Shown in pieces: positions 36,254 through 61,468 of a DNA stretch of 64,000 bases (within the stretch, counting starts at the first letter, position 1; each line of letters begins with the position of its first letter). Under the pieces are notes generated by a model. It was not told where the DNA came from, searched no databases, and was given only the letters and a program-made list of their open reading frames with translations. The stretch comes from a virus. Lineage: Duplodnaviria > Caudoviricetes. The translations under genes were made by a program, and so were the position numbers. The stretch covers positions 290,810 to 354,809 of IMG/VR virus record IMGVR_UViG_3300021400_001148; one strand, written 5' to 3'.

Positions 36254-36303
36254 AGGAAACAAACAGCAATTTAAACAAACAGGTTAGTTATGAATAGTTT
36301 TCT
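36254..36303 (+). promoter_or_regulatory. ACAGCAA leader stem-loop enclosing the start codon of the DUF2828-like gene
   Basis: AGGAAAC(36254-60) pairs GTTTTCT(36297-303); ACAGCAAT at 36263-70; ATG at 36290. Confidence 0.55.
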
Positions 36304-37936
36304 GAAGGCAGCACAAACTTCCGAGGGAAGTGCTTATACTGAGAATGGTGCAATCTCTTACGCGTCAACTGGTTCCGAACTTGTCGACCAGTTTGGAAAG
36401 GCCGGGGCATATCGTGGCCGTGACATTTCTGTGGTTTTTGATGAACAGGCAAGACTCTACAACGAGAATCCAGAGGCGGCAATCAAGTTCCCGTTTTATC
36501 TTCGTCTTATCACTCGTCAGGTGAAACTCGAAAACGGAGAAAAAACAGAAAAAGTCCAGAGGGGTGCCGGTTCCCGTGATGAGGCGTACAAAAGGCTTCT
36601 GTGGTTTGCGGAATATCAGCCCGATGTTTTTTACCGTAACCTTCCCCTTCTTCCTCTTATAGGTTCGTGGAAGGATATTTGGCAAATTCTTTCCCTTGAC
36701 ATGGATAATCACAATGTGATTAACCATTCAAAGGTGTACGGGGTCATTGCTGATGGTATTGTCAATGAGCACACTACGGACCTTGCAAGGAAGTATCTCC
36801 CTCGCATCAGGTCTGAAAAGAAGTGTACCACCCCGTGGGCAAAAAATACTAATCGTCTCGCAAAGGAGTTTGTGAATTTCCTTAATCGGGTTCTTCCTGA
36901 TGGTTACACTTATTCTGATTACCGCGAACTGAAATCTGAGGGTAAAGCACATAAGTTCCAGCAGTATATAACCAAGGGGCTGTATGATAGTATAGATTTT
37001 AAGACAATTCCCGGAAAGGCGCTGTTGAACCTTGTTTCAGGAGCATTTTTAACAAAACACGGCCTACTGGACAAGTATACCGAGTGGCTCAAGTCACAAC
37101 CAACGGTGAAATTCAATGGATATCCATACGAACTTGGGGTTAAATTGTATAACGGTGGGAAATCTCTTGCTGTAAGGATTACCGTTGACAAACAGTTCGA
37201 AACCCTTATCGAAACCGGGAAAAAGGATGGCGGTGCAATCAAGGGAAATGTTTGGTGCGCACTTGATACAAGTGGTTCGATGATGGCAAGAATTAATGGA
37301 AATACACTTTCACCTTACATCGTGTGCAAATCACTTGGCATATACTTTTCCACATTGAATGAAGGCGCATTCCATAAGAATGTTATTATGTTTGACAATT
37401 TCAGTCGAATTAAACAACTTTCAGGGTCTTTTTCGGAGATGTGGGAACAGATTCCGCAAAATGCTATGGGTTCCACAAACTTCCAGAGCGTTGTAGACGA
37501 GATTGTTCGGGTTAGGAAAGCAAAGCCGGAAATCCCACTTTCGGATTACCCTTCCACACTTCTTGTGGTGTCGGATATGCAGTTTAACCCTGCCGGCTCT
37601 TACACATGGGAAGAAAGGACGGCATCACAATCTGATATTGAAACAAATATCAATGCGGCAAAGAGGAAACTTCGCCAAGAATTTCCAGATGATTGGGTTG
37701 AAGGTTTCAAGTTCGTTTGGTGGAATGTAGCCGGCCGTCCAACCGATGATTTCCCAGCAACACTTGACCACGGCGGAAGTTATTTCTTCTCCGGTTTTGA
37801 TGGCGCGGTTATCTCACTGCTTCTTGGCAGTCAGACAGAAGTGGTAGATAAGACTACTGGTGAAAAGCGTCAGCCTACCGCAGAGGAATTGGTGGACGCC
37901 GCATTGAACCAAGAAATTCTTTCACTTGTTAAGTGA
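36290..37936 (+). CDS. DUF2828/TROVE-like protein with C-terminal vWA domain
   Basis: TENGA.SY.STG N-terminus; RGAG.R; GSWKD; MIDAS DTSGS; STNF; SDMQF; WNV; SGF. Confidence 0.85.
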   Translation: MNSFLKAAQTSEGSAYTENGAISYASTGSELVDQFGKAGAYRGRDISVVFDEQARLYNENPEAAIKFPFYLRLITRQVKLENGEKTEKVQRGAGSRDEAYKRLLWFAEYQPDVFYRNLPLLPLIGSWKDIWQILSLDMDNHNVINHSKVYGVIADGIVNEHTTDLARKYLPRIRSEKKCTTPWAKNTNRLAKEFVNFLNRVLPDGYTYSDYRELKSEGKAHKFQQYITKGLYDSIDFKTIPGKALLNLVSGAFLTKHGLLDKYTEWLKSQPTVKFNGYPYELGVKLYNGGKSLAVRITVDKQFETLIETGKKDGGAIKGNVWCALDTSGSMMARINGNTLSPYIVCKSLGIYFSTLNEGAFHKNVIMFDNFSRIKQLSGSFSEMWEQIPQNAMGSTNFQSVVDEIVRVRKAKPEIPLSDYPSTLLVVSDMQFNPAGSYTWEERTASQSDIETNINAAKRKLRQEFPDDWVEGFKFVWWNVAGRPTDDFPATLDHGGSYFFSGFDGAVISLLLGSQTEVVDKTTGEKRQPTAEELVDAALNQEILSLVK

Positions 37937-37941
37937 AAAAG

Positions 37942-37969
37942 AAATCCCCTCTTTTGAGAGGGGATTTTT
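37942..37969. terminator. bidirectional terminator
   Basis: AAATCCCCTC/GAGGGGATTT between convergent genes. Confidence 0.75.
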
Positions 37970-37973
37970 CTGT

Positions 37974-38705
37974 TTAGGCTCTAAAATCATTTTTATTCAA
38001 AGTACTGTCCGGTCTTACATTTTTAACATGTTTGACCACATCGTTAATTTCTTTGGGATTGTCTGACCTGTTAATTCCGTCACCACCATTCCAAGAATTG
38101 GTTTCCGGATTAAATTCATTTCTTATTCGGTTAGTTCTTGGGGTATAATCTATGGGGTTCCTAGTGGGATTTTCACTGTCTTTTTCATAAAAGTCTACAT
38201 TATCATCACTATCCAGCCAATATTTAGCAACAACATTGCTATTAGGGTCATTTGCTAGTTGATTGTATGTTTTTCTAAGCTGGTATGCTCTGCCGTGCTG
38301 CCCCAATCGGTCCATTTTATCATATGTTCTTTTAATAGTAGCATAATCACGGCCAGTGCCATTTATTTCGTTAAGGACACGGATGACACTTTCCTTTATG
38401 ATATCACGAAGTTCGCTTTCTTTGAGATATCCTCCGAGAGGAATTGCCGGATGATTTCCATGCTTGTAATCATGATAGTCTATTGCCCCACCTTCTGAGC
38501 CTTTCTCTGCTTCTTGTGCGCGAAGCCTCTCATAGTATGCTTTTTTTGCGGCCCGCTTTTTTTCAATATACTGCTCATATTCTTCAGGACTCAGGTTCCT
38601 GTTTTGTCTTTCGTGGTATGCATATTCATCCATCATTCCCTCGACAGATTCCCTGACAAGTTTTATAAGGGTTGCTTCATTTATCTTAACAGTACTCATT
38701 CTCAT
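37974..38705 (-). CDS. putative head-associated protein with two INE/LKE helix motifs
   Basis: KINEATLIKLVRESV and LKESELRDIIKESVIRVLNE; TATTTATA upstream. Confidence 0.6.
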   Translation of the reverse strand: MRMSTVKINEATLIKLVRESVEGMMDEYAYHERQNRNLSPEEYEQYIEKKRAAKKAYYERLRAQEAEKGSEGGAIDYHDYKHGNHPAIPLGGYLKESELRDIIKESVIRVLNEINGTGRDYATIKRTYDKMDRLGQHGRAYQLRKTYNQLANDPNSNVVAKYWLDSDDNVDFYEKDSENPTRNPIDYTPRTNRIRNEFNPETNSWNGGDGINRSDNPKEINDVVKHVKNVRPDSTLNKNDFRA

Positions 38706-38772
38706 TAATTTTAATATAAATAGTCTGTTAACGGTGATTTTTTTGTATATTTGTCAATAGAATCTATATTGT

Positions 38773-40776
38773 ATGGCTATATCAGCAAAAAAGAAAATGG
38801 AGGCACTGGATATTCTTCAAGGGTATTCGGGACGGAATCCTTATATATTGATGGTTAAAAAAGATGTGCTCATCAATAAAGAAGAGTTCACTGATTTTCA
38901 CGCGGAATACATTCTCACAAACTACAATAAAGAGCCAAAACCTATCAATAAAATTACCAAAATACCCGAGTGGTATGGGGAGAAGAAGAAAGAGGATTGG
39001 GAGTTGGATTTTACACCTAAAGTACTCCTCATTGTATCTTATCTCGGGGAAACAAGTACAACATATAATTGTTATGTCCAGTATCGGAAGTCAGTTCCGG
39101 CAGTAATGGCTTTTCTCCCCAAAAAGGCCGTTTTGAATAATTTCCTTGTAGATGATTATAGGGAAATGCCGGTGAACTTCGAAAAATATGACGCCATTAC
39201 AACAAGAAAAGACCCCAACAGAAAACTCCGCGACCATCAAAAAGATGCTGTAAAGTTCCTCCTGTCTAGGAAAAAGTGTATACTTGCTGATGGTATGGGG
39301 TTAGGAAAATCAGTTGAACTCACCGTGGCTGCATTGGAGGGGCAATTTGAACGGGTTCTCATTATCTGCCCCGCATCAATTAAAACTACTTGGAGAAAAG
39401 AACTCGAGTGGTATGTTGAACCTTCTCAGATAACAATAATAGAATCTTTTGACAAAAAGAACAAATCTGAACTGGAAGAATTTCTGGGCTACCCCGTCGG
39501 TAAATCAAGAATGACGGTTGGCGAACTTAAAGCGGAAGCGAAAGAAAAAGGTAAATGGAAAAACAACAAATTCGTTATAGTTAATTATGACATACTCGAT
39601 GATGTTTATAAGATACCTGTAACGAGAAGTAGGGAAAACATACAAAAGGCTTATGAAAAGTCACCAATGCTTCAGTATATTGAAAATCACTACTCCCTCG
39701 TGATTATTGATGAGGCACACAGGCTTTCGAACACAACTTCGAATCGTTACAAAATTATAAGGGATTTCCTGAAGAGAGGGGACCCTGCCGCCATTTATGA
39801 AGCGACAGGTACCCCGATTACAAATCGCCCCCTCAATCTTTTCAATGTGCTTTCTTTTTTGGATGACCCGATTATTCAGAATTGGGAAGACTATGTAAAG
39901 AGGTATTGTAATGGGTTCCAAATTCCAGCAAAGGGTGAAAAGGAAAAGTGGACCAATATATTCTGCAAAAAATACAAAATTTCCAATAAGTGGCAGATGA
40001 CATACAAGCAATCGGAAGATTGTAAGAAATTTATCAGTGACAATGCAAGAAAGATTTGGATTACTGAAGGTGAAAGTAATCTTGAAGAACTGAAAGAGAG
40101 AGTTGGGCATATCTATCTCAGGAGGGTCAAAGAGGACATACCGGGCATGGTCAAGAAAGAAATTCACGAATTTTTCTATGACCTTACGGATGAACAAAGA
40201 AGGGAATATAATAAACTTTGGGACGAATATGAGAAGCAGAGGCTCGAACTCGACCCGGCCCTCGAAATAAACAAAGAACTTATAGAAGGTTCGATTTATA
40301 GGAGATACCTTTCAAATGAAATGGTGCCTTATACAATAGAGTTGGCCGAGTCCCTCTTAGATGAAGGGAGAAAGGTTGTGATTGGCTGCTGTTACGATGA
40401 AGAACTTTACAGGTTGCAAGATTATTTTAAAGACCGCTGTGTAGTTTATAATGGAAAAATGGATAGCAAACAGAAAGACAGAGCACAGACGGCCTTTATG
40501 GAGAATCCGGAAGTGAAGGTTTTCATCGGGAACATAAATGCCGCTGGCGTGGGACTGACACTCACCGCATCCAACGCATTAATCTTTAACGATTTTGATT
40601 ATGTTCCGGGTAACAATGCACAATTTGCGGATAGAGTTCACCGCCTGACATCCAAAGAAGATGTTGACATATTCTATCAGATTTTCCGAGGTACACAATA
40701 TGAAAAAATGTGGAACATCGTTCTAAGAAAAGATTTGGTCATTGATGCCGTTGTCAAGAAAGAAGACGAAAAATAG
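38773..40776 (+). CDS. SNF2-family helicase
   Basis: LADGMGLGKS, DEAH, TGTP, GVGLTLTA, Q..DRVHR. Confidence 0.9.
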   Translation: MAISAKKKMEALDILQGYSGRNPYILMVKKDVLINKEEFTDFHAEYILTNYNKEPKPINKITKIPEWYGEKKKEDWELDFTPKVLLIVSYLGETSTTYNCYVQYRKSVPAVMAFLPKKAVLNNFLVDDYREMPVNFEKYDAITTRKDPNRKLRDHQKDAVKFLLSRKKCILADGMGLGKSVELTVAALEGQFERVLIICPASIKTTWRKELEWYVEPSQITIIESFDKKNKSELEEFLGYPVGKSRMTVGELKAEAKEKGKWKNNKFVIVNYDILDDVYKIPVTRSRENIQKAYEKSPMLQYIENHYSLVIIDEAHRLSNTTSNRYKIIRDFLKRGDPAAIYEATGTPITNRPLNLFNVLSFLDDPIIQNWEDYVKRYCNGFQIPAKGEKEKWTNIFCKKYKISNKWQMTYKQSEDCKKFISDNARKIWITEGESNLEELKERVGHIYLRRVKEDIPGMVKKEIHEFFYDLTDEQRREYNKLWDEYEKQRLELDPALEINKELIEGSIYRRYLSNEMVPYTIELAESLLDEGRKVVIGCCYDEELYRLQDYFKDRCVVYNGKMDSKQKDRAQTAFMENPEVKVFIGNINAAGVGLTLTASNALIFNDFDYVPGNNAQFADRVHRLTSKEDVDIFYQIFRGTQYEKMWNIVLRKDLVIDAVVKKEDEK

Positions 40777-40791
40777 TTGTATATTTGCACT

Positions 40792-41799
40792 ATGGAAGAG
40801 TTTAGGAAACTACAAAACATATTTACTTCGTTTCTAGGAGAGCCGAAATCAGATATGAGCAGCAACGGGCAGTGCCAGTACTGCTGCCCCTGTTGTGCAG
40901 AAGAGGCCGGTGTCGACTCCGACGGTAAATATAATCTGGAGGTAAATTTCCACATAGGCAAGTTCCACTGTTGGAAGTGTGGTTCAACCCATGCCATGAA
41001 GGGTGGCTTGTCTTTCCTTATCAGGAGGTATGGCAACCAAACAATCCTTGGCCAATACAAAGAGGCTGTAGAGGAACTTAAGTCAAGCGGCCTTTATGAT
41101 TTGCATTTATTCACTGGTGACACACAGGTTGTGAATGAGGATTTTCTCATCAAACTTCCTGAAACTTACCGAAAAATAGACTTTAGTCGCAATAAGAAAG
41201 GTAAAATGGTGGAGTATCTTCGAAAAAGGGGTATAACACAGGAAGACATTGACAAATACAATATCGGCTACACCACTTGGGAGGAAAAGAAACCTAACGA
41301 GAGAAACCGTATCATATTTCCATCTTACAACAGCAACGGTTTTTTAAATTATTGGGTTGGTAGGGATTTTACTGGTTACCCAAAACGAAACAAATACAAA
41401 AATGTGGATGATGTCAACAAAACTGGTGTTGTTTTTTTTGAGGACAAGGTGATTTGGGATGCGGACATCGTTCTCGTCGAAGGTATTTTTGATGCCCTCC
41501 ATACACCAAACGCCATACCTATGCTCGGTAAAACACTTTCAAGAGAGAGTGCTCTTTTTCAGAAACTTTACAAACTGGCAAATGCTAACATAATAGTGGC
41601 AATAGACGGCGATACGGAGATGTCCGAGGTGAAAAATATTTACAGAACACTGAATCAAGGACGATTAAAAGGAAGAATACGGTATATCAGAATGGGAAAA
41701 AAAGATTTTGGCAAGATATATGAAGAAGATGGAAAACGGGGGATTATCAATGAATTGAAAAAGCAAACCACATTTTCTGAACCGGAATTACTCACCTAA
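40792..41799 (+). CDS. DnaG-type DNA primase
   Basis: Zn finger CPCC...CWKC; TOPRIM EGIFDA, DGD. Confidence 0.85.
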   Translation: MEEFRKLQNIFTSFLGEPKSDMSSNGQCQYCCPCCAEEAGVDSDGKYNLEVNFHIGKFHCWKCGSTHAMKGGLSFLIRRYGNQTILGQYKEAVEELKSSGLYDLHLFTGDTQVVNEDFLIKLPETYRKIDFSRNKKGKMVEYLRKRGITQEDIDKYNIGYTTWEEKKPNERNRIIFPSYNSNGFLNYWVGRDFTGYPKRNKYKNVDDVNKTGVVFFEDKVIWDADIVLVEGIFDALHTPNAIPMLGKTLSRESALFQKLYKLANANIIVAIDGDTEMSEVKNIYRTLNQGRLKGRIRYIRMGKKDFGKIYEEDGKRGIINELKKQTTFSEPELLT

Positions 41800-41846
41800 T
41801 GCGCCGGAAATCAATGTAAAAAAGATTATTTTTGTATATTTGTAAT

Positions 41847-42680
41847 ATGGTAAGTAAAATTATAGCAGTAAGTGACCTTCACATCAAAAACATTAAGGGT
41901 CTTGACGAAATCAAGGGTCAGTTTGGGAAGTTTGTGAAGGAGTGTGAGAAAATCGCAAAGAAAAATGGGCCTGAGAATACCAGAATTGTTCTCTGTGGGG
42001 ATATCATACACTCAAAACTTGATGTTTCTAACGAGGCTTTGATTATGGAGTCTTGGCTTTTTGGTGAGCTGGATAAAATTTGCAAGACGATAGTTGTTTG
42101 TGGAAACCACGACCTGAATCTTTCAAATCTCCAGCGTGTAGACTCCATCACACCGATTTTTGAGGTGAGGGATTTTAAACAGACTGTTTATATTGATAAA
42201 GAGCTGGGGTACAAATCCGGCTCTCTCGTGGACGATAATATTGTCTGGTGCCTTTATTCAACCTTCGACGGTTTCAATGGCCCCAATGATATGGAAGTTT
42301 TGAGAAAAACAAATGAAGGCAAGACCTTTGTCGGACTTTTCCATGGAGACTTGAATGGAGCAAAAAACGCTTCCGGGGTGGCTCTTACTGGTCTTGAACT
42401 GTCTCACTTTGAGGGTAGTGATTTCGTTATCGCCGGTCACATTCACAAACAGCAGTCACTTTCTAAGGGCGGCGTTGAAGTTGTGTATTGCGGCTCCCTT
42501 ATTCAACAGGATTTCGGGGAGGAGGTATATCCACATGGGTATGTTCTTTGGGATGTTGAAACAAAAAAATGGTCTTTTGTTAAAATCAAAAACGAAGACA
42601 ATGGTTTTTATAAATTCAGTATCTCACAAGAAGAGGATATTGATGAGGACAAGGAGAAATTCCTTAATGCCGGAAAATGA
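41847..42680 (+). CDS. SbcD/Mre11 (gp47-like) nuclease
   Basis: SDLH, GD, GNHD, HG, GHIH. Confidence 0.9.
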   Translation: MVSKIIAVSDLHIKNIKGLDEIKGQFGKFVKECEKIAKKNGPENTRIVLCGDIIHSKLDVSNEALIMESWLFGELDKICKTIVVCGNHDLNLSNLQRVDSITPIFEVRDFKQTVYIDKELGYKSGSLVDDNIVWCLYSTFDGFNGPNDMEVLRKTNEGKTFVGLFHGDLNGAKNASGVALTGLELSHFEGSDFVIAGHIHKQQSLSKGGVEVVYCGSLIQQDFGEEVYPHGYVLWDVETKKWSFVKIKNEDNGFYKFSISQEEDIDEDKEKFLNAGK

Positions 42681-42712
42681 AAATGACCGCCGATGGCGGC
42701 CATTTTTTTTTT
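42681..42712. terminator. bidirectional terminator
   Basis: AAATGACCGCC/GGCGGCCATTT plus T-run. Confidence 0.7.
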
Positions 42713-43487
42713 ATTTATGGAGAATAAGTTTTTTCTCGTAAGTTTTGTTCCAGATGCTTGTTACATAATCAATCTCTATAACTGATTCCTGCTGATGTAT
42801 AATGGACGATGAAATAACCGGTGGCTCTTTTACATCACCATTTCTATAGAGGTTAATATATGCCAGAGCACAGACAAGTGAATCACAAGCGTCAAAATTT
42901 TCCTTCTTAATTTCGCCCTTTTTATTGAGAACCCAAGTGATATCCGGGTATAGGTCATTCACTTTGTTCATCATCACATCCTTCTTGTCAATATCAAATG
43001 GATAATCGCCGAAGAGTACAATATGATTCTTCTTAATGGCAGATTTGACATGGTCGAAGGAATATTCCTTTCCCTTCTTATCATATTTCCTGAGGGCGAC
43101 GAGTTCCGGAAATGAATATGTTCTGGCATCGTGCGACGAGATGAATGTAGGGAATATCCCAAGAGCACGGTGGACCGCATCTCCAATCATACCGTTGAAA
43201 CGAAGCAATGCGGCCACGGTATATGCGTTGTTTGATGAGATGAGGGGCTCCTCTATTACACAATCTGTAATACCGCTGGCTTTGAGTGTTTCAAGAAACT
43301 CCTTTTCAAAAATGTCTTTCTTGAGAACGAGTGATTCGAAATTGTCCAGTTTTTTGGAGACTTTTGGTGAAATATGTGTCAATAACAGAACTTTGGGGGG
43401 TTCATTTTTACCCTCATCAAGAACAATGGACACACCAACACAGACAGTGCTGATGTCAAGCCCTAGTATGAGTTTTGGATTAGCCAT
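42711..43487 (-). CDS. RuvC-like Holliday junction resolvase
   Basis: ILGLDIST..VG, VIEEP, DACDS. Confidence 0.8.
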   Translation of the reverse strand: MANPKLILGLDISTVCVGVSIVLDEGKNEPPKVLLLTHISPKVSKKLDNFESLVLKKDIFEKEFLETLKASGITDCVIEEPLISSNNAYTVAALLRFNGMIGDAVHRALGIFPTFISSHDARTYSFPELVALRKYDKKGKEYSFDHVKSAIKKNHIVLFGDYPFDIDKKDVMMNKVNDLYPDITWVLNKKGEIKKENFDACDSLVCALAYINLYRNGDVKEPPVISSSIIHQQESVIEIDYVTSIWNKTYEKKLILHK

Positions 43488-43593
43488 TTCTTTTTTTATT
43501 TAATATGGGAAAATGTGAAAATATGTAAATATTTTGCGCCAAAAATGTGATTTCTCGGCAAAGTTTTTGTATATTTGTAAAAACCATTAGAAT

Positions 43594-43938
43594 ATGGCCA
43601 GTGTAACAATAAAAGATGAATTGTATGCGGGTATCAAAGAGTATTGTGGCTTAAACAATCTCAAAATAGGAGAATATTGCAATTCATTATTAGAGAAGGC
43701 CTTTCTGGTCGACAAATATGGGGATGCACCGCCGTTTTTCAAAAAGAAAACTGAAGCAAAGAGTGAGGCGGCCAAAGAAAATTTGGGAGAATACCCAATT
43801 GTTCCGGAAGAAGCATTAAAACCAGAGGCGGTTATTAAGAACCCCGAGGATAAAAAAACAGAAGAAGAAAAACCGGCACCAAATACAAGTGCCAACAGTA
43901 AAAAACAAGAGGCAAGAAATAGAATAAAATATCTATGA
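43594..43938 (+). CDS. hypothetical protein, possible ribbon-helix-helix N-terminus
   Basis: SVTIKDELYAGIKEYC...IGEYCNSLL. Confidence 0.5.
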   Translation: MASVTIKDELYAGIKEYCGLNNLKIGEYCNSLLEKAFLVDKYGDAPPFFKKKTEAKSEAAKENLGEYPIVPEEALKPEAVIKNPEDKKTEEEKPAPNTSANSKKQEARNRIKYL

Positions 43939-52108: not shown

Positions 52109-52109
52109 T

Positions 52110-53028: not shown

Positions 53029-53033
53029 ATACC

Positions 53034-54988: not shown

Positions 54989-55001
54989 TAGTGAAACACA
55001 A

Positions 55002-56009
55002 TTAAATGTGTTTTAAAACCCACCCATAAAGTGCACTGTCGGAAGTGATGTTCCCCATGAACAGATACTTCCGACTTTTACAATATGTACCCAGAAGGTT
55101 GTAAAATCTTATAGCATCGGCAAAACACTTACAAGTGATAATATCGGTCTCATCGAAATCGTTACAGATGACTATTTGCCTTTTGAAAAGAAAAATTCTT
55201 TTCATATCATAGTCGGTGCGGAATTTTTGTGTGACGATGTTTTCATATATCCACATAAAAGTTTTTCTGTCCATACGCGGGTCATATCCCCTCACCGCAA
55301 AAGTCTCCTCGATTCTGGCCTCAAACTTGTCTATCATATAGAGGTTTTTGATTTTTCCCCTCATCTTGTGTTCCACGAGTCTTCCATATTGATTTCGGAA
55401 AAAACCATTGGTAAGAGTCAGTTTATCATCGGGAAATTTTTTGCGGCAGATTATGTATTCGTCCACGGACGGTTTGAGAACACCACGCGAAAAAACAAAC
55501 TTTCGTTCAAACACAACCTTTTGATTTCTTTCTTTTACCTCGGACAGTGATTCTTGCATTTTTTCATAGGTGGTGTAACTTCCGATTTTAGAAGCCTTTC
55601 CAAGGGCTTTTCCGTTGTGGGTTAGGAAAATATAATAGTACTTGCGGGCATAAGTCTTACCAATCATCCTCCTTGATGCTTTCCTCGCATTCTTGCGTTT
55701 GCGTTTTTCTATCTCATGCTGTTTTTTCTTGAGTTGCTGCCGTTTGATTTTTGCCTTTTCCCGCTGCTTTGCCCGTTCAGCCAGTTCTTCCTGATGCTTT
55801 CTTATTCTGGCTTTTTGCCTGCGAACTTTTAGAGCATTTTTCCTGCCTTTGGCTGCACGCATCGCAGCTGATTTCTTGCCACCGAGCCGCTGTAGTTCAA
55901 GAATTTCCTCGGGAGTCTTTTTCCTTGGGCCCCTTTTCTTGTGCTTTTTTTTGTACCGATATCTTTCCAGATATTCCTCCAGTTCTTTCTTTGAATAGCG
56001 GATTGGCAT
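55002..56009 (-). CDS. highly basic protein, putative nucleic-acid binding
   Basis: K/R-rich N-terminal ~115 aa plus globular C-terminus. Confidence 0.6.
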   Translation of the reverse strand: MPIRYSKKELEEYLERYRYKKKHKKRGPRKKTPEEILELQRLGGKKSAAMRAAKGRKNALKVRRQKARIRKHQEELAERAKQREKAKIKRQQLKKKQHEIEKRKRKNARKASRRMIGKTYARKYYYIFLTHNGKALGKASKIGSYTTYEKMQESLSEVKERNQKVVFERKFVFSRGVLKPSVDEYIICRKKFPDDKLTLTNGFFRNQYGRLVEHKMRGKIKNLYMIDKFEARIEETFAVRGYDPRMDRKTFMWIYENIVTQKFRTDYDMKRIFLFKRQIVICNDFDETDIITCKCFADAIRFYNLLGTYCKSRKYLFMGNITSDSALYGWVLKHI

Positions 56010-56077
56010 TAAAACTTTTTTTTTAATATAGGATTTTTTTGTATATTTGCCACAGAAAACTTTAACAATTAATAAAT

Positions 56078-56566
56078 ATGGCAAAAACATTAAGCAGTGC
56101 TAGCGAGGAGTATGTGAAACTCCTGAAGGAAGCGGTGGCTGAAACCGGTCTTGACCGAATGGGTGTGGATTTCCAGGCGTTCAACCTCATCAAGGCAAAG
56201 AATCAGGTGGTAAAGGTGATGAAGGCAAATGAAATTGCTGAACTCTTGAGCAACCGCGAGGATTTGGTTATTGTAGGAATTTATGAAGAGGCATTTGACC
56301 TCGTCGATGAACCAACTAAGAGACTTTGGCTTGAGTCCGCCCTTTCACAGGTTTCATATGATTCAGAGAAAGGACGACTCAATATTGGCGGTGAACCCAC
56401 TATTACGGTAACTCTTGGATTCTATCACAAATACAACGAAAAGGCCGTGGAACTTGCAGAACTTGAACAACTCACACTCCAGCAGATTAGAGACAAGGAA
56501 GAGGAGGAAAAAGAACGCCGCAAGGCTGAAAAGGCTGCAAGAAAGAAATTCAAAAACAATTTTTAA
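56078..56566 (+). CDS. hypothetical protein co-transcribed with clpP
   Basis: ORF after TATATTTG promoter. Confidence 0.6.
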   Translation: MAKTLSSASEEYVKLLKEAVAETGLDRMGVDFQAFNLIKAKNQVVKVMKANEIAELLSNREDLVIVGIYEEAFDLVDEPTKRLWLESALSQVSYDSEKGRLNIGGEPTITVTLGFYHKYNEKAVELAELEQLTLQQIRDKEEEEKERRKAEKAARKKFKNNF

Positions 56567-56578
56567 TACAAAAATTTT

Positions 56579-57250
56579 ATGAATAAACTTAGGGATTTTG
56601 AACTTTTTGCAAAGAGCAACGGAGTGTCTCCTTCTTTTCTGAGTGACTATATGGCTAAAGGGCCCCAGTCTTATATTAACCCCACAATTATCGAGGAACG
56701 CACGAGGAACATCACAGCAATGGATGTTTTCTCCAAACTCCTTATGAACAACATTATTTTTATAGGCGATGAAGTAGAATCCAATATGGCAAATGTCATT
56801 ACCAGCCAGTTGCTCTGGCTTGATTCGACCACTGATGAGGCTATAAAGGTTTATGTTAATTCTCCCGGTGGCTCCGTTACCGACGGCCTTGCTATCATTG
56901 ATACGATGAGGTTCGTTCATAACAAGGTTTCGACAACCTGTATCGGTATGGCGGCATCGATGGGTGCTATGATTCTTTCATCCGGAGACAAGGGTTCGAG
57001 GTATTCAATGCCCAATGCGTCTATCCTCATTCACAATCTTTCAAGTTCCACTTGGGGAAATATTGCTGATATGAAGATTGCAGTTGCTTTCTCTGACCGT
57101 TTGAGCAACATCCTCGCCGATATGCTGGCAAAGAATACTGGGCATACAATCGAGGAGATTAAGACAGCCATTGACCGTGACAACTGGATGACTCCTCAGC
57201 AGGCCGTGGATTTTGGTCTTATTGACAAGATTATTGATAAACGCAGCTAG
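56579..57250 (+). CDS. clpP: Clp protease proteolytic subunit
   Basis: YVNSPGGSV, GMAASMGA (Ser), LIH (His), DRDNWM (Asp). Confidence 0.95.
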   Translation: MNKLRDFELFAKSNGVSPSFLSDYMAKGPQSYINPTIIEERTRNITAMDVFSKLLMNNIIFIGDEVESNMANVITSQLLWLDSTTDEAIKVYVNSPGGSVTDGLAIIDTMRFVHNKVSTTCIGMAASMGAMILSSGDKGSRYSMPNASILIHNLSSSTWGNIADMKIAVAFSDRLSNILADMLAKNTGHTIEEIKTAIDRDNWMTPQQAVDFGLIDKIIDKRS

Positions 57251-57270
57251 TGAGGGTTTCCTAAAACAAG

Positions 57271-57300
57271 AAAACGCATCCTTGGTTGGGTGCGTTTTTT
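57271..57300. terminator. bidirectional terminator
   Basis: AAAACGCATCC/GGGTGCGTTTT. Confidence 0.7.
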
Positions 57301-57315
57301 CTTTATGATAATTAC

Positions 57316-57591
57316 GGGAGAAAACCACGGCTTTAGCCGTTGGGGTGAATCCCGCGTCGCAAATATACAAAATATTTCAATTTCCTCCCGGATTCTGGCG
57401 CATCTTTCTGAAGCCGGTGGATTAGTTATTGTCTGGGAAGTCCCACGACAGGGACCTGAATGCCGCCAGAAATATACTTCGTCGGGGCATCGACGAATTG
57501 GCGAGTGCCGGTAAGACCAATGACCGTGTGGTCAGTGGCGGGCACGCCTGAAGCCAAGAATCCCACGAATTCATTCGTGGGAGTATGTCAA
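57316..57591 (+). mobile_element. non-autonomous IS200/IS605-family element (internally deleted, tnpB 3' remnant)
   Basis: Follows TTAC; left hairpin CCACGGCT/AGCCGTTGG; right hairpin TCCCACGAAT/ATTCGTGGGA; ends TCAA; no target duplication. Confidence 0.85.
57444..57551 (+). pseudogene. tnpB: tnpB C-terminal remnant
   Basis: HDRDLNAARNILRRG motif (RuvC-III). Confidence 0.85.
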
Positions 57592-57731
57592 GCCGGGCGT
57601 CTGACAATTACTCGCCTTTTACTTGCTGGGTTAGTTGCCTTTGCTCCGCTGCTTCTTTTTAGGGAAGAGGCTGTTTTCTGAACGGTTTTGCCGGCATTAG
57701 TGCTCTGGTTTTGTTTACAAGCGCAAGCCAT
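57588..57731 (-). CDS. 47-aa basic protein MACACK...RRPA (below the ORF-track cutoff)
   Basis: Translated by hand; TATTTATA motif 16 nt upstream; CxC start shared with the ORF at 18444. Confidence 0.6.
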   Translation of the reverse strand: MACACKQNQSTNAGKTVQKTASSLKRSSGAKATNPASKRRVIVRRPA

Positions 57732-57820
57732 CTCTTTTGTGTTTTAATATAAATATAATTGCGCCTGAAAAATTGTGAATAGATTTATTTTTCTTATCTT
57801 TGCAAAAAAATGGAAACAAT

Positions 57821-58402
57821 ATGTTTAATTTTAGAAAGGTTTATTTAGAAAAAAAGATTAGCGATACTTTGTCCTATCCTTGTATTGTGGAGATGTTCAG
57901 GTCAGCGGAAAAATGTGGACTTTTCAAGGAATTTTCGAAGGACAATCTGCAGGCAATGGAAAGGGATAAGTTCTATTGCTTCGGTGGAAATGTGGAAAGT
58001 GTAACGAAAACCATTTCAATGGAAACAAACTATATGTTCTACAACGACTTATGTATAGTGATACAGCACTACACTGATTCATACATTGTCAGGGCACGGG
58101 TTAAGGTTCCAAATCAGCAGTGGTGCGTTGATGAAGAAAAAAACATCAATACAAACTATCTTGAGGTTTATTGCTGGTGGTCAGTGGATTGGATGGGCTT
58201 TGGCCACTTTGATACTTTTTCCGGCTACAAGCATGGTGAGTGGGACGAGGATATTTACCTTACAATATCTAAGATAAAAAAGTGTCTGGAAGAGTCGAAA
58301 GAGGAGAATATTTTTGCAAAAGTTTATACTGAAAGCAAAGAAGAGAAAAATACAATAACAATACCAGTCACAGTTAAGGCTTATGTGGAAAATAACAGAT
58401 AG
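57821..58402 (+). CDS. hypothetical protein
   Basis: After TGCGCC-N29-TATCTTTG promoter. Confidence 0.6.
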   Translation: MFNFRKVYLEKKISDTLSYPCIVEMFRSAEKCGLFKEFSKDNLQAMERDKFYCFGGNVESVTKTISMETNYMFYNDLCIVIQHYTDSYIVRARVKVPNQQWCVDEEKNINTNYLEVYCWWSVDWMGFGHFDTFSGYKHGEWDEDIYLTISKIKKCLEESKEENIFAKVYTESKEEKNTITIPVTVKAYVENNR

Positions 58403-58598
58403 TGACATTAATAAAATCCTAGAAAGACTCTCTGGCGGCACCAAGGACTATAATTGGAACTATACAGAAGATTCAATTTTCTCCTTAACCCACAGGGGAG
58501 ATGTGATTTTTACTTCCGACGATATAGAAGAATTTTATGCTTATATTTCATTTTTAACGCAATTAAAAGAATGGGAACCAGAGGAAATATCGCAGTAA
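58383..58598 (+). CDS. small hypothetical protein
   Basis: Overlapping operon. Confidence 0.5.
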   Translation: MWKITDSDINKILERLSGGTKDYNWNYTEDSIFSLTHRGDVIFTSDDIEEFYAYISFLTQLKEWEPEEISQ

Positions 58599-59188
58599 TC
58601 CTCAAGGAAGAGGATTTGAGAAAAGAAAAACTCGTATTCAATAAGGAATTGATTCCAATCAAATACGACTTGAAAACATTTTTTGCTGCCACTCACGAGC
58701 CGCTTTATATTACCAGACTCAACGGTGCTGATAGAATTTGTGTGTATGTTCAGTTTGATGCATACCCTTCCGGTGTGGGAGAGGTTCTCATGGAGCACTA
58801 TGAAACTTACGAGAAGGCCCTCAATCTTGTAGTGGGGGGAAGCGTGGAGGGCCTCTGTAGTGGTTATCAAAGTATACTTGAAAGCAGGAGAACCGACATA
58901 GCCCTCCATAGGTTTGGAGATGTGTCTGGGTTCAATGAGGAGTATTCGTATCTTTTTACGGATGGCAGATGGTGGGTAAGGTTTAATGATGTGTTCTACA
59001 GCCTCCGCTCCCGACTTGAAAATGCCGGTATTGACTGGGATGGTGTATTTAAGGTGTTTCTCCCTCTTGAAGATGTCCTTGGGAAAGGTCTGAAGGAGAG
59101 GTTCGAGAGTGTCTCCGAAATGAGTGAAGAGGAAAAGAAGAACCTTCAGTCTACAATTAAGGAATTTCAAAAGCAGAAATTGAACTAA
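58571..59188 (+). CDS. phage hypothetical protein (MGTR...D.YP..VG family)
   Basis: MGTRGNI, YVQFDAYPSGVG, EEYSYLF. Confidence 0.6.
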   Translation: MGTRGNIAVILKEEDLRKEKLVFNKELIPIKYDLKTFFAATHEPLYITRLNGADRICVYVQFDAYPSGVGEVLMEHYETYEKALNLVVGGSVEGLCSGYQSILESRRTDIALHRFGDVSGFNEEYSYLFTDGRWWVRFNDVFYSLRSRLENAGIDWDGVFKVFLPLEDVLGKGLKERFESVSEMSEEEKKNLQSTIKEFQKQKLN

Positions 59189-59299
59189 TTTTTGTATATT
59201 TGTAGTGTCATTTAGTTGGCTGGTGGAGGTGGGGGTCAAGGACTCCTGTTAACTTGAAATCGGTTGAATGTCTGATTTCAGGTTCAAAGAAAACAGGAT

Positions 59300-60178
59300 A
59301 TGGAGCGAACAAACCTGAAGATAAATGAGAATGGTTTAAAGGATATTGTTGGCCACATCACCCGGGAGGTTCTTTTTGAAACGCTTCCGAAACAAGACGC
59401 GGCCGGCAATATCTACGCCTCCCTTTTGGAAAGTAAACCTTATATCGTAAAAGAAGGCCTAATTCATTCTTATCCGATGAAGAATGTGGTTTCTGCTTTG
59501 AAATCTTTGTTTACCCTAACCACTGCGGGCAGCAAAGAAGAAGGGAATCGAATACTTTATTTTCTGGACAAGGGGCTGCATTCTTGCAACGGGTTGATTT
59601 CTCTGAACAAATACAGCGAAAATAACACAGAACGGATAGAGATAAAGGTTAGCAAAAACGACTTCAATCAGAATGATTTTGACAAATATCTTTTAAAATA
59701 CGGGTGGTTTTGCAGCATATCCCAGAGGCTGGAAGGGTATGATAACCTTGTAAGGTTTATATACGAGAAAAAATTTGATGTCGATGTCACCGACGAGGTG
59801 ATTAAAAACCAATACCTCTATCATATATGCCCGAACATATATTTGAACAAGATTAACACGGTCGGGCTTAAACCGAAAGTTTCTTCTTGGAACGCCTTTT
59901 CAAATCCAGAAAGAGTATATTTCTTTTTGAAAGAATTGTCTCACGAGGATTTTGTTTTGTGGGCTGAGAACTTCAGTTTTGGGAAGAAAGTAAACCACAC
60001 CCTGAATGACGGCTGGTCTTTGCTTAGGGTAGATGTTTCCAGTCTGACGAATAATCCTACTTTCTATCTTGACCCGAGAATGAGGAACGGTGTGTATACA
60101 ACGGATACAATTTCCCCGGAAAACATTGAAATTGTCGATTATTTGCCGGAAGAAGATATTTTTTATAAAAATTGGTGA
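59300..60178 (+). CDS. ART-fold (Tpt1/KptA-like) protein with N-terminal INE helix motif
   Basis: YLYH.....I...GLKP...RVYF...LLRVD...VYT...ISPENI. Confidence 0.55.
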   Translation: MERTNLKINENGLKDIVGHITREVLFETLPKQDAAGNIYASLLESKPYIVKEGLIHSYPMKNVVSALKSLFTLTTAGSKEEGNRILYFLDKGLHSCNGLISLNKYSENNTERIEIKVSKNDFNQNDFDKYLLKYGWFCSISQRLEGYDNLVRFIYEKKFDVDVTDEVIKNQYLYHICPNIYLNKINTVGLKPKVSSWNAFSNPERVYFFLKELSHEDFVLWAENFSFGKKVNHTLNDGWSLLRVDVSSLTNNPTFYLDPRMRNGVYTTDTISPENIEIVDYLPEEDIFYKNW

Positions 60179-60252
60179 ATTTTTCGAAAAATATTTAACT
60201 TTTTTGAAAAACATTTATATTTATCAATGAAATTGCGTAAAATAACTTTCGT

Positions 60253-60381
60253 ATGACACGGTTCAATAACATTAAAAGAAGCACATCCAAGTTTGAAGAG
60301 AAACTCGGAGGCTTATTCGTGTCAAGGAGTTATGATGCCCCACGAGCACACGAGACGCGAAGGCGAGAATTGAAGAAGTAG
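60253..60381 (+). CDS. 42-aa Arg-rich putative leader peptide
   Basis: MTRFNNIKRS...ETRRRELKK after a TATTTAT motif and before a terminator. Confidence 0.35.
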   Translation: MTRFNNIKRSTSKFEEKLGGLFVSRSYDAPRAHETRRRELKK

Positions 60382-60434
60382 ATGCAGGAACTCCCCGCAC
60401 ATAGGTTTCTAACCACTATATACATTCTTTCTTC

Positions 60435-60473
60435 AACCTCCCTCGCAGTCCCAACTAAGATGGAGGTTTTTTT
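60435..60473 (+). terminator. terminator or attenuator hairpin
   Basis: AACCTCC/GGAGGTT plus T-run. Confidence 0.6.
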
Positions 60474-60492
60474 GTGGGCTTAGATTCTAATT

Positions 60493-60537
60493 TGCGCCGA
60501 GTTTCCCAGAGATTAAAATATTGTTTGTATATTTGCA
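60493..60537 (+). promoter_or_regulatory. TGCGCC-N29-TATATTTG promoter of the RNA island
   Basis: Boxes at 60493-98 and 60528-35. Confidence 0.75.
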
Positions 60538-60562
60538 TTGTCAAACGACACGAAGGCAAGAC

Positions 60563-60634
60563 ACTTCCATAGTTCAACGGATAGAACGGAAGTTTCCTAA
60601 ACTTTAAATCGAGGTTCGATTCCTCGTGGGAGTA
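60563..60634 (+). tRNA. tRNA-Arg(CCT)
   Basis: Cloverleaf; GAAGT-TTCCTAA-ACTTT; GGTTCGATTCC. Confidence 0.9.
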
Positions 60635-60652
60635 CATAGTTCATTGAAATAC

Positions 60653-60838
60653 AAAAAAAACATTCGGTAGAAATTGCAGGTTCAAGGCCTGTTCTGAGGC
60701 GGATGACGGCGAACTAGGATGTATCTTGATAGTGTTAAATCCCGTGCCAGCCTTGTTAGGGAGTTGCTGTTAAGTAAGGTCGGCTACTGATAAAACTGCT
60801 AATCGTAGCGCTGCGATAAAGTATGAATGTTTTTTTTT
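60653..60838 (+). ncRNA. structured RNA A with T-arm-like hairpin
   Basis: 13-bp closing stem A8CATTC/GAATGT8; GCAGG-TTCAAGG-CCTGT. Confidence 0.5.
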
Positions 60839-60842
60839 AGAT

Positions 60843-60984
60843 TTAACTAACCGAGGTTCAAGAAAGCTGTGGTAATTTGCATTAAGTCCATGGAAATCCT
60901 TGAGACGGAGCCCTAAGTTGAATGCAATCGACAAGAAAGGTAGATGTGGGGGTCGCTGGAACTGCGATAGGGTAGGTTAGTTAA
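60843..60984 (+). ncRNA. structured RNA B
   Basis: Perfect 10-bp closing stem TTAACTAACC/GGTTAGTTAA; internal TTGCATT/AATGCAA. Confidence 0.5.
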
Positions 60985-60989
60985 CATAT

Positions 60990-61063
60990 GCCTCCATAGC
61001 TCAGTTGAATAGAGCGTCTGGCTACGAACCAGGAGGTCCGAGGTTTGAATCCTCGTGGGGGTA
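60990..61063 (+). tRNA. tRNA-Arg(ACG)
   Basis: Cloverleaf; TCTGG-CTACGAA-CCAGG; T-loop TTTGAAT. Confidence 0.9.
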
Positions 61064-61070
61064 CAAAATC

Positions 61071-61159
61071 TGCGGTTTAAAAAACCTTCAGGCGGCTGAA
61101 AAGGGTAAAACCGATGTGAGGTTAAGGCTGACCCTCGCAACCCGTTAGGGTAAACCGCA
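61071..61159 (+). ncRNA. structured RNA C
   Basis: 9-bp closing stem TGCGGTTTA/TAAACCGCA with three internal hairpins. Confidence 0.5.
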
Positions 61160-61170
61160 ACGGAAAATAT

Positions 61171-61386
61171 GAGCAAAGCCCCCGGGGGCGGAATGAAAAC
61201 CGTTAGATTGGTCCGGGGTGGTGCTGAAAGTAGTGTAAAAACAGGATAGTGATGCGGACTGCGCAATCCCGCACACTTCCTGAGTCGGTAACAAGACACC
61301 GGTTTGTGGGGAGTCGAGGCCCCCGTTGACGGGAGGACCGCGAAATCAGGAAAAACGCTAGTGGTTCGAATCCACCTTGCTCACCA
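61171..61386 (+). ncRNA. tRNA-mimic RNA D (~216 nt)
   Basis: GAGCAA/TTGCTC acceptor stem, GTGGTTCGAATCCAC T-arm, encoded ACCA end, large structured interior. Confidence 0.6.
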
Positions 61387-61408
61387 ATATAGTTCTTTGA
61401 AAATATAG

Positions 61409-61468
61409 GAAGACTTACAGCAATGTTAGAATTATGTCATGATTACAGAAGAGTACGTGTCTTCACCA
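61409..61468 (+). ncRNA. ACAGCAA small RNA E
   Basis: GAAGAC-TT-ACAGCAAT...GTCTTC-ACCA. Confidence 0.55.

What the first reader, a model, noticed from the sequence alone, without database searches (positions are those of the whole stretch)
36254..61468. Candidate new RNP system: DUF2828/TROVE-like protein with a shared ACAGCAA RNA element in its own leader and as a free CCA-ended sRNA
Seen: two loci 25 kb apart share one architecture. The leader reads AGGAAAC-AA-ACAGCAAT...GTTTTCT (36254-36303). It starts at the expected transcription start of the promoter and encloses the ATG (36290) of the DUF2828/vWA gene. The island copy reads GAAGAC-TT-ACAGCAAT...GTCTTC-ACCA (61409-61468). The stems differ in sequence but both keep their pairing, and ACAGCAAT lies exactly 2 nt past the stem in both. 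Established: Ro60 (TROVE plus vWA) binds Y RNAs through a stem formed by their 5' and 3' ends. Inference: the DUF2828 protein binds the ACAGCAA stem, the island sRNA is its Y-RNA-like partner or decoy, and the leader copy gives translational autorepression.
Basis: partly seen in the sequence, partly recalled or inferred. Interest (0 to 1): 0.9.

Follow-up and report, generated by a model that had tools for sequence, protein, structure and literature searches.

The report
Phage Ro60-like protein and partner RNAs
A giant gut phage encodes a ring-shaped protein that folds like the RNA-binding autoantigen Ro60, and the "short stem plus ACAGCAA" element at the start of its own mRNA belongs to a widespread, apparently undescribed family of small structured RNAs that travels with this protein gene in very different phages and is probably its RNA partner.

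Summary
Both elements are in the sequence exactly as described. Within this genome alone they are not beyond chance: fold z-scores are -0.01 and -0.52, and the 8-mer occurs at chance frequency. Comparison with other phages changes the picture.

The architecture is a 7-bp clamp, 2 nt, ACAGCAA, a variable body, the clamp's other strand, then G. It recurs beside DUF2828 genes and in tRNA arrays of many phages. I found 50 different clamp sequences. All 160 scored pair cells stay paired, against 71% in shuffles.

In a complete 393-kb relative, significant model hits fall only in tRNA islands and in the DUF2828 leader.

The protein model (pLDDT 93) matches Ro60 over its full length (Z 20.7, 429 residues aligned). 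It keeps the MIDAS motif but gives no match to the Pfam TROVE model.

Some long relatives of the RNA score below threshold as YrlA. Some short ones score just below threshold as Dictyostelium Class I RNA.

My reading is a divergent Ro60/Y-RNA-type particle. The leader copy starts at the predicted 5' end of the mRNA and encloses the start codon, so autorepression is plausible but untested.

The island copy is a weaker member: a 6-bp clamp and model E-value 0.11. Its ACCA end is not conserved.

Binding is inferred, not shown. Other reports in this scan describe the same protein-RNA pairing on other DNA.

The parts
36201..36245 (+). Phage promoter: TTGCGCC (36201-36207) and TTTGTATATTTGC (36233-45). 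The latter contains a Bacteroidota-type -7 element, TAnnTTTG.
   Evidence: The 13-mer occurs 21 times at up to 2 mismatches against 3.6 expected. All but one of the copies within one mismatch lie on the + strand, mostly just ahead of ORF starts. The same promoter stands 8 nt before the element in L136/L137 and L146. Reading TAnnTTTG as a Bacteroidota -7 element rests on my own knowledge.
36254..36305 (+). Leader copy of the handle RNA: clamp AGGAAAC/GTTTTCT, spacer AA, ACAGCAA(T), trailing GA. It encloses the start codon at 36290-36292, and its 3' arm covers codons 3-5.
   Evidence: Homologous leaders keep the core but change the clamp on both sides: AGAAAAC/GTTTTCT, AGAAATT/AATTTCT, AGAATTT/GAATTCT, AGGGGAC/GTCCCCT, GGAACGC/GCGTTCC. 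It scores 46.4 bits with model R1, but it was a seed of that model.
36290..37936 (+). Gene for a 548-aa DUF2828/DUF7788 protein, a divergent Ro60: a helical-repeat ring plus a vWA domain with MIDAS motif D326xS328xS330.
   Evidence: Pfam DUF7788 59 bits; DUF2828 27.1 bits, below its cutoff of 29. PHROG 850 'RNA-binding protein', E 2.8e-50. AF2 model pLDDT 93.3. The 13 best Foldseek matches are all Ro60/TROVE. VIA-align Z 20.7, 429 residues aligned, rmsd 3.7 A against 1yvr. The MIDAS residues are invariant in 74 sequences.
61408..61468 (+). Island copy of the handle RNA: clamp GAAGAC/GTCTTC (6 bp; the seventh position is a G-A mismatch), spacer TT, ACAGCAA(T), then ACCA. It lies between a tRNA-like 3' end and a structured RNA.
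   Evidence: It is the second-best hit of model R1 in the window, at 20.3 bits and E 0.11, using an alternative 3' partner at 61481-61486. Its 5' context AAAATATAGGAAGAC-TT-ACAGCAA parallels G007's AAAATATAGGAAAAC-GT-ACAGCAA. An assembly identical to the window over this stretch goes on to carry two canonical copies directly after tRNAs, at L216:10458-10508 and 12797-12866.
60493..64000 (+). The tRNA and non-coding RNA island that holds the second copy. It has two promoters (60524-36, 61896-908) and four tRNA genes (60563-635, 60990-1064, 61770-843, 62875-948). Most of the remaining sequence holds no ORF longer than 150 aa, and several stretches of it are covered by RNA-library contigs.
   Evidence: Metatranscriptome contigs cover 61182-61333, 61459-61743, 61954-62740 and 63295-63923 at far greater depth than the neighbouring coding genes.

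Best explanation
The 548-aa protein is a divergent Ro60, a ring of helical repeats joined to a vWA/MIDAS domain. The 'clamp + NN + ACAGCAA' module is the shared handle of a family of small RNAs of 34-155 nt. The variable body of these RNAs often carries tRNA parts, such as T-loops and anticodon-like hairpins.

By analogy with Ro60 and Y RNAs, the protein binds the handle. The RNA body then presents or tethers something else, for example tRNA-handling enzymes or nucleases.

In this phage one handle forms the very 5' end of the protein's own mRNA and encloses the start codon. Surplus protein would clamp its own leader and block translation initiation. The copy in the tRNA island would be a separately made partner or decoy RNA.

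Shown here: the RNA family, its covariation, its genomic linkage to the gene, and the protein fold. Inferred: binding, autorepression, and the role of the RNA body.
For: Protein:
- AF2 model with pLDDT 93.
- The 13 best Foldseek matches are all Ro60, including a phage Ro60.
- Z 20.7 over residues 10-529, against about 11.8 for the best vWA-only matches.
- The best PDB profile hit is Ro60, E 2.8e-4.
- The MIDAS motif is invariant.

The RNA family is real:
- 75 distinct elements with 50 distinct 5' arms.
- On the model alignment, 160 of 160 pair cells are paired against 71% in shuffles (0 of 500 shuffles reach it). 48 cells show changes on both sides against 11.6. Slid controls give 37-63% paired.

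Linkage to the gene:
- On 78 DUF2828 loci there are 81 descriptor hits on the gene strand and 22 on the opposite strand.
- All 35 model hits at E<0.01 lie on the gene strand of the DUF2828 loci or on the strand of the tRNA island.
- Arrays of 2-6 elements abut the gene in distant phages and in cultured Listeria, E. coli and Mycobacterium phages.

Specificity: in the complete 393-kb relative G007, hits at E<0.1 fall only in tRNA islands and the DUF2828 leader. The descriptor finds 15 elements there against 1.5 in shuffles.

Leader:
- In at least 8 phages the element ends 0-12 nt before the start codon or overlaps it.
- In L185, L191 and L210 the ATG lies inside the 5' arm AGATGTT.
- The spacing from the promoter is a fixed 8 nt in three lineages.

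Kinship with Y RNA: long forms give sub-threshold YrlA hits of 30-42 bits next to the gene.

Precedent: Y RNAs are encoded beside Ro60 in bacteria and phages (PMC4201824, PMC12135203).
Against: There are no binding or expression data for the elements themselves. Contigs from RNA libraries do not cover the island copy.

The protein does not match the Pfam TROVE model, even at E<=1.

The handle lacks the GNCGAAN0-1G motif described for bacterial Y RNAs (PMC4201824).

About two thirds of the sampled DUF2828 loci show no element within 1.2 kb.

DUF2828 genes often lie near tRNA arrays, so part of the linkage could run through the arrays rather than the protein.

The window's hairpins are thermodynamically weak, and the island copy is a marginal member (E 0.11).
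Confidence: 0.65

Rival explanations
1. The leader copy is simply a partner-RNA gene co-transcribed with the protein gene and cut from the 5' UTR, as with Yrl1/Yrl2 upstream of the phiLo Ro60 gene. It has no regulatory role. The protein still binds the family.
For: In distant phages, several tandem elements and even tRNAs stand upstream of the gene: L170 has two, L198 five or six, L207 three with a tRNA between them. These look like RNA genes rather than operators. Precedents: PMC12135203, and PMC4201824 where YrlA and YrlB are processed from one precursor upstream of rsr.
Against: In this window the 3' arm lies inside codons 3-5 and the ATG lies inside the element, so excising the RNA would destroy the mRNA. 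In L185, L191 and L210 the ATG is part of the 5' arm. The close abutment to the start codon recurs across the clade.
Confidence: 0.3
2. The elements are processing or stability modules of tRNA-array transcripts, for example recognition sites for a nuclease. They sit near DUF2828 genes only because those genes lie beside tRNA arrays. The protein does not bind them.
For: Many copies directly follow a tRNA 3' end. In L206 the tandem units are joined by a constant GAUAA linker, which looks like a cutting site. tRNAs are common in DUF2828 flanks.
Against: In G000, G007, G008, L136/137, L143 and L146 a single copy sits in the DUF2828 leader. In the window and in G007 the nearest detected tRNA gene is tens of kb away. 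No other mRNA leader in G007 carries the element. The partner protein has the fold of a known stem-binding RNA protein.
Confidence: 0.12
3. The window's island copy is a decayed or chance look-alike. Only the leader copy is functional in this phage.
For: It has 6 rather than 7 pairs, no trailing G, model E 0.11 and fold z -0.52. A competing closure, AGGAAG/CTTCCT, uses the same 5' letters. The 8-mer occurs at chance frequency in the genome.
Against: It lies in the expected place, a tRNA island, on the right strand, with upstream context like the G007 copy. The spacing to the core is exactly 2 nt. Its 11 letters ACTTACAGCAA carry all five positions reported as near-invariant in Class I RNAs (PMC7919456). 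It is the second-best model hit in 128 kb searched.
Confidence: 0.25

Closest known systems
Ro60 (Rsr, TROVE + vWA) with Y RNAs: bacterial and phage YrlA/YrlB/Yrn1 (Chen et al. 2014, PMC4201824; Rfam RF02553) and Thermus phage phiLo Ro60 with Yrl1/Yrl2 (PMC12135203; PDB 9kop, 9l5y)
   Same: The protein has the full-length Ro60 fold with a MIDAS motif. The small RNAs are closed by a 5'/3' stem, are encoded beside the protein gene on the same strand, often in several copies, and some have a tRNA-like T arm. Long relatives score 30-42 bits as YrlA. Mycobacteriophage members of the protein family are already annotated 'Ro-like RNA binding protein'.
   Different: The protein gives no Pfam TROVE match. 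The conserved RNA letters are ACAGCAA, 2 nt after a 7-bp clamp, not GNCGAAN0-1G. Many members are minimal, at 45-70 nt. Copies are scattered through tRNA arrays. One copy forms the protein's own mRNA leader. No element reaches the YrlA gathering score.
Dictyostelium Class I RNAs (Rfam RF01414; Kjellin et al. 2021, PMC7919456)
   Same: Both have a short stem joining the 5' and 3' ends, with sequence free but pairing kept; a conserved motif directly after the 5' arm ending in ...ACAGCAA; a variable body; a length near 60 nt; and a 3' end CUG(U). Relatives of the window's elements score 37.3, 36.8, 28.1 and 27.4 bits over the whole model, against a gathering score of 41.5. The island copy's ACTTACAGCAA has T, C, C, A, A at motif positions 3, 6, 9, 10 and 11, as the paper reports.
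   Different: Class I RNAs are reported only from dictyostelid amoebae and are bound by the RRM protein Rnp1A. No link to a Ro60-like protein is published. The window's own copies do not reach a reportable score. Common descent is untested.
Autogenous translational operators that mimic the protein's RNA target (ribosomal-protein leaders, the thrS leader, T4 RegA; from my own knowledge)
   Same: The cognate RNA motif is placed at the translation start of the binding protein's own mRNA.
   Different: No binding or repression has been measured here. The operator would be a complete copy of the partner-RNA handle located at the transcript's 5' end.

Membership tests
Ro60 / TROVE proteins | Sequence match to the Pfam TROVE domain (PF05731) | tested here: not met
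   No TROVE hit for the protein at E<=10. No match anywhere in the genome at E<=1, while control genomes do match. Only DUF7788 (59 bits) and DUF2828 (27.1 bits, below its cutoff of 29) are hit.
Ro60 / TROVE proteins | Full-length architecture: helical-repeat ring followed by a vWA domain | tested here: met
   The 13 best Foldseek matches are all Ro60, E 1e-9 to 2e-6. VIA-align gives Z 20.7, 429 residues aligned over 10-529, rmsd 3.7 A against 1yvr. The best ten matches are all Ro60 and the next are vWA-only at Z about 11.8.
Ro60 / TROVE proteins | MIDAS motif (DxSxS) in the vWA domain | tested here: met
   D326, S328 and S330 are invariant in 74 homologues.
Ro60 / TROVE proteins | Binds Y RNAs or misfolded RNAs | not testable with these tools
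   This needs EMSA, RIP or a structure.
Y RNA / YrlA (RF02553) | Reaches the Rfam gathering score (69 bits) | tested here: not met
   No hit in the window at the gathering score, and none at E<=1 in the island. Long relatives reach only 30-42 bits.
Y RNA / YrlA (RF02553) | GNCGAAN0-1G motif near the 5' end (PMC4201824) | tested here: not met
   Reading the two elements directly: the conserved letters are ACAGCAA, and neither element contains GNCGAA.
Y RNA / YrlA (RF02553) | Closing 5'/3' stem, and encoded near the Ro60 gene on the same strand | tested here: met
   The leader copy abuts the gene. The island copy is on the same strand, 23.5 kb downstream of the gene's stop. Arrays abut the gene in relatives.
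Y RNA / YrlA (RF02553) | tRNA-like domain (T arm, D arm) | tested here: not met
   Neither window copy has a T-loop. 15 of 75 relatives have one.
Dictyostelium Class I RNA (RF01414) | Short terminal stem plus an 11-nt motif adjacent to the 5' arm, with T, C, C, A, A at positions 3, 6, 9, 10, 11 | tested here: met
   The island copy ACTTACAGCAA has 5 of 5. The leader copy ACAAACAGCAA has 4 of 5 (motif positions from PMC7919456).
Dictyostelium Class I RNA (RF01414) | Reaches the Rfam gathering score (41.5 bits) | tested here: not met
   No hit for the island copy at E<=1. The best relatives score 37.3 and 36.8 bits.
Dictyostelium Class I RNA (RF01414) | Occurs in dictyostelid amoebae, with the DUSE promoter element | tested here: not met
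   This is a 355-kb virus record with terminal repeats, and the element follows a phage promoter.

The most novel reading that the evidence does not exclude
The handle marks a cross-kingdom ribonucleoprotein family. Ro60-like DUF2828 proteins load 'clamp + ACAGCAA' RNAs whose bodies display tRNA parts: anticodon loops of Lys, Asn and others, and T arms. In phages these particles act as decoys or adaptors against host nucleases that cut tRNA, or recruit repair and processing enzymes. The protein limits its own synthesis through a handle at the 5' end of its mRNA. The unexplained Class I RNAs of social amoebae would be members of the same RNA family.
Probability: 0.2. Interest if true: 0.9.

Novelty: new variant of a known kind. 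Interest (0 to 1): 0.72.

Why it matters
Ro60 and Y RNAs are a classic but still poorly understood RNA surveillance system. Phage versions have only begun to be studied.

This work points to a second, much more widespread phage branch. 678 cultured-phage records carry the protein, among them Felix O1-like coliphages, P100-like Listeria phages and mycobacteriophages. This branch comes with its own simple RNA handle, which is absent from Rfam and from the papers I could search.

The handle is short and its rules are clear, so binding, autoregulation and the role of the displayed tRNA parts can be tested directly in model phages.

The near-match to Dictyostelium Class I RNAs offers a concrete hypothesis for RNAs whose function has been open for about 20 years.

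Tried and rejected
- Megablast of the gene region against cultured phages gave no match. The island matched only through its tRNAs.
- An exact 17-mer from the island copy gave 8 unrelated hits in IMG/VR, all chance.
- Flanks of the homologues of the 292-aa neighbouring gene (L015, L016) held no island.
- The 16-mer GGAAAACRTACAGCAA gave 79 loci. Only about 13 were real; the rest were coding sequence or chance.
- My first tally of ACAGCAA upstream of homologues mixed in coding N-termini. The MNTKTATKT group was dropped. The MFDSKK group was later kept, because its ATG-containing arm AGATGTT has a matching partner.
- MAFFT split the 3' arm across gap columns, so model R1 carries only 5 of the 7 clamp pairs.
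- The first protein alignment was too diverse for the search for related loci.
- Contigs from four RNA runs do not cover the island copy. This says nothing either way.
- A 143-nt skip at 63745/63889 in those contigs has short sides and may come from other organisms.
- No RtcB gene is present in this genome.
- The idea that the island RNA is a mini tRNA with a CCA tail was rejected. It has no T or D arm, and CCA is absent in relatives.
- A possible extra copy at genome position 166000 (-) has no clamp partner.
- Eight records that carry the RNA but showed no DUF2828 gene (G009-G015 and G006) are fragments, 14-82% complete. They are uninformative.
Full report
SETTING. The window is the last 64 kb of a 354,809-bp virus record with direct terminal repeats, rated complete. 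It uses a very regular promoter, TTTGTATATTTGC, often with TTGCGCC about 30 nt upstream. From my own knowledge, the TAnnTTTG inside it is the Bacteroidota -7 element. RNA libraries that hold the sequence come from animal gut samples, sheep among them. A 362,907-bp assembly from another sample is identical over the island.

THE OBSERVATION.
- Leader: AGGAAAC (36254-60), AA, ACAGCAAT (36263-70), ATG at 36290, GTTTTCT (36297-303), GA.
- Island: GAAGAC (61409-14), TT, ACAGCAAT (61417-24), GTCTTC (61459-64), ACCA.

The leader element begins 8 nt after the promoter core, which is where a transcript should start.

Taken alone, this is weak evidence.
- Fold energies equal those of shuffles (z -0.01 and -0.52).
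- The 8-mer occurs at chance frequency: 15 in the genome against about 14 expected.
- A strict descriptor (7-bp clamp, 2-nt spacer, core, trailing G) finds 2 elements in the genome against 1.45 in shuffles, and the island copy fails it.

RELATIVES CHANGE THE PICTURE. Homologous genes at 58-65% protein identity keep the core in their leaders while the clamp changes on both sides:
- AGAAAAC/GTTTTCT in L001 and L002
- AGAATTT/GAATTCT in the 393-kb phage G007
- AGAAATT/AATTTCT in the 363-kb phage G008

G007 also carries at least nine copies in its tRNA islands. A scan of IMG/VR with one clamp variant returned further copies. Most sit directly after a tRNA 3' end, on contigs of 100-390 kb.

I then fetched 78 loci of DUF2828 homologues. 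About 25-28 of them carry the element within 1.2 kb on the gene strand. Many distant ones (33-46% identity) carry tandem arrays of 2-6 units just upstream or downstream of the gene, each unit with its own clamp. Descriptor hits number 81 on the gene strand and 22 on the opposite strand.

The same holds in cultured phages:
- Mycobacterium phage LeBron: two units flank a YrlA-like RNA after its 'Ro-like RNA binding protein' gene.
- A Felix O1-like coliphage: three units in the tRNA array after the gene.
- Listeria phage LMTA-148: three units just before the gene, with ROOL RNA upstream and RtcB downstream.

The consensus is 5'-(A/G)G NNNNN - NN - ACAGCAA - A/U-rich variable body - N'N'N'N'N' C(U/C) - G(A/U).

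STATISTICS. A covariance model built from 17 leader and array copies carries 5 clamp pairs plus the core, because MAFFT split the 3' arm.
- It finds 35 hits at E<0.01 in 268 kb. All lie on the gene strand of the DUF2828 loci or on the strand of the tRNA island.
- On that alignment, 160 of 160 pair cells are paired against 71% in shuffles (0 of 500 shuffles reach it). 48 cells change on both sides against 11.6 expected. Sliding the partner columns gives 37-63% paired.
- The alignment is fitted to the model, which favours the structure. However, the 50 distinct clamp sequences among 75 distinct elements were found independently of the model.
- In the whole G007 genome, hits at E<0.1 lie only in tRNA islands and in the DUF2828 leader.
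- In the window, the leader scores 46.4 bits (it was a seed). The island copy is second-best at 20.3 bits, E 0.11.

THE PROTEIN. Pfam sees only DUF7788 and, below threshold, DUF2828. It sees no TROVE. PHROGs calls the family 'RNA-binding protein'.

An AF2 model built on 74 homologues is confident, with pLDDT 93.3 and pTM 0.92.
- Its 13 best Foldseek matches are all full-length Ro60, including the Thermus phage phiLo protein.
- VIA-align gives Z 20.7 with 429 residues aligned against Xenopus Ro60, while vWA-only matches stop near Z 11.8.
- The best profile-to-PDB hit is also Ro60 (E 2.8e-4).
- The MIDAS motif is invariant.

So the protein has the Ro60 architecture but is not a Pfam TROVE member by sequence.

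WHAT THE RNAs RESEMBLE. No Rfam family reaches its gathering score on any element.

Long-form relatives that contain a T arm score 30-42 bits as YrlA. In L206 such a unit uses AUGCAAA in place of ACAGCAA after an equivalent clamp.

Short forms score up to 37.3 bits over the whole Dictyostelium Class I RNA model, whose gathering score is 41.5. Class I RNAs have a 6-bp terminal stem of free sequence, an 11-nt motif beside the 5' arm with near-invariant T, C, C, A, A at positions 3, 6, 9, 10 and 11, a variable body, and a 3' CUGU (PMC7919456). The island copy's ACTTACAGCAA fits all five positions.

Canonical bacterial Y RNAs instead carry GNCGAAN0-1G (PMC4201824).

The RNA bodies often display tRNA parts. 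15 of 75 have a 5-bp stem with a 7-nt YU-NNN-R-N loop, against 2.3 expected. 15 of 75 have a T-loop.

MECHANISM. The inference that the protein binds the handle rests on three points:
1. The protein fold.
2. The Ro60/Y-RNA precedent of partner RNAs encoded beside the gene (PMC4201824, PMC12135203).
3. In G007 the DUF2828 mRNA is the only one whose leader carries the handle.

For the leader there are two readings: an autogenous operator, or a co-transcribed partner-RNA gene. I favour a regulatory role for this clade for two reasons.
- The element starts at the predicted 5' end.
- It ends 0-12 nt before the ATG or overlaps it. In this window the ATG is inside the element and codons 3-5 form the 3' arm. 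In L185, L191 and L210 the ATG lies within the 5' arm.

Neither binding nor repression has been measured.

THE ISLAND COPY AND THE CCA END. The island copy lies in the expected setting and has upstream context like a G007 copy. It has only 6 pairs and no trailing G, and a competing closure exists. The assembly identical over this stretch carries two canonical copies directly after tRNAs further along the island.

Relatives show G(A/U) after the clamp, not CCA. The ACCA is therefore best read as chance.

Contigs from four metatranscriptomes in three studies cover the large island RNAs at high depth, but not this 60-nt stretch. That is uninformative.

PRIOR KNOWLEDGE. I found no paper on DUF2828 and RNA, nor any linking Class I RNAs to Ro60. 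Jumbo-phage TROVE proteins with a tRNA-like partner are mentioned in PMC7824862.

Earlier reports of this scan describe the same protein-RNA pairing on other DNA: 75 notes in at least 71 genomes. I read them after reaching my own conclusion, and they agree with it. One of them gave me the Class I paper, which I then checked.

VERDICT. The core interpretation is supported by comparative evidence. The CCA tail is not supported. Binding and autorepression remain to be tested. This is a new variant of the Ro60/Y-RNA kind.

Noticed in passing
window 61954-62740 (Rfam hit 62318-62725): A GOLLD-like large RNA scores 86 bits (E 4e-22), below the gathering score of 150. It follows the promoter at 61896-61908. 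A contig of about 787 nt with the same ends appears in four metatranscriptomes from three studies, at depth up to 249 against 0-6 for the neighbouring genes.
   Followed up: partly
window 61171-61388: A structured stretch ends in a tRNA-like T arm and acceptor 3' strand with CCA (GGTTCGAATCCACCTTGCTCACCA). A possible 5' partner, TGAGCAA, lies at 61171. It matches no Rfam family at E<=1. Related islands hold tmRNA and permuted tmRNA (L128, L122).
   Followed up: partly
window 63647-64000 and genome start: The 5' half of a tRNA (anticodon region CTTTTGA, Lys-like) at 63650-63690 runs into a long insert that crosses the genome end, so it is probably an intron-bearing tRNA. RNA contigs join 63745 to 63889, skipping 143 nt, but with short sides. 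The related assembly has a weak group I intron hit (L216:16179-16712, 30.6 bits). G007 has tRNA genes with inserts of about 110 nt.
   Followed up: partly
window 60636-60650, 61389-61403, 61922-61936, 62948-62964: A motif ATAGTTC(T/A)TTGAAA(A/T) recurs directly after tRNA or tRNA-like 3' ends and before the large RNAs. It is a candidate processing signal or spacer of the island transcripts.
   Followed up: no
window 61470-61770, 60640-60990, 62950-63650: Further ORF-poor, G+C-richer stretches lie between the tRNAs. They are covered by RNA-library contigs (61459-61743, 60669-61040, 62961-63214, 63295-63923) and match no Rfam family. They may be additional large structured RNAs.
   Followed up: no
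L221 (Listeria phage LMTA-148) 469-1020 and 4852-5422: A ROOL-like RNA (90 bits, gathering score 99.1) lies upstream of the three handle RNAs and the DUF2828 gene, and an RtcB RNA ligase gene lies downstream. This puts the system in an RNA-repair neighbourhood in that phage. The window's own genome has no RtcB.
   Followed up: partly
genome positions about 6240, 221123, 267151 (outside the window): A different repeated hairpin, AGCAAC-N-ATTCGCAAGCG-TTGTTGCTGG, is preceded by ACATA in several copies on both strands. Its function is unknown.
   Followed up: no
L206 2888-4047: Downstream of a distant DUF2828 gene, at least ten units stand head to tail, joined by a constant GAUAA linker. Their cores vary (ACAGCAA, ACTGCAA, ATAGCAT, AUGCAAA), and the first unit is YrlA-like. 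This is a useful natural series for defining which core letters matter.
   Followed up: partly
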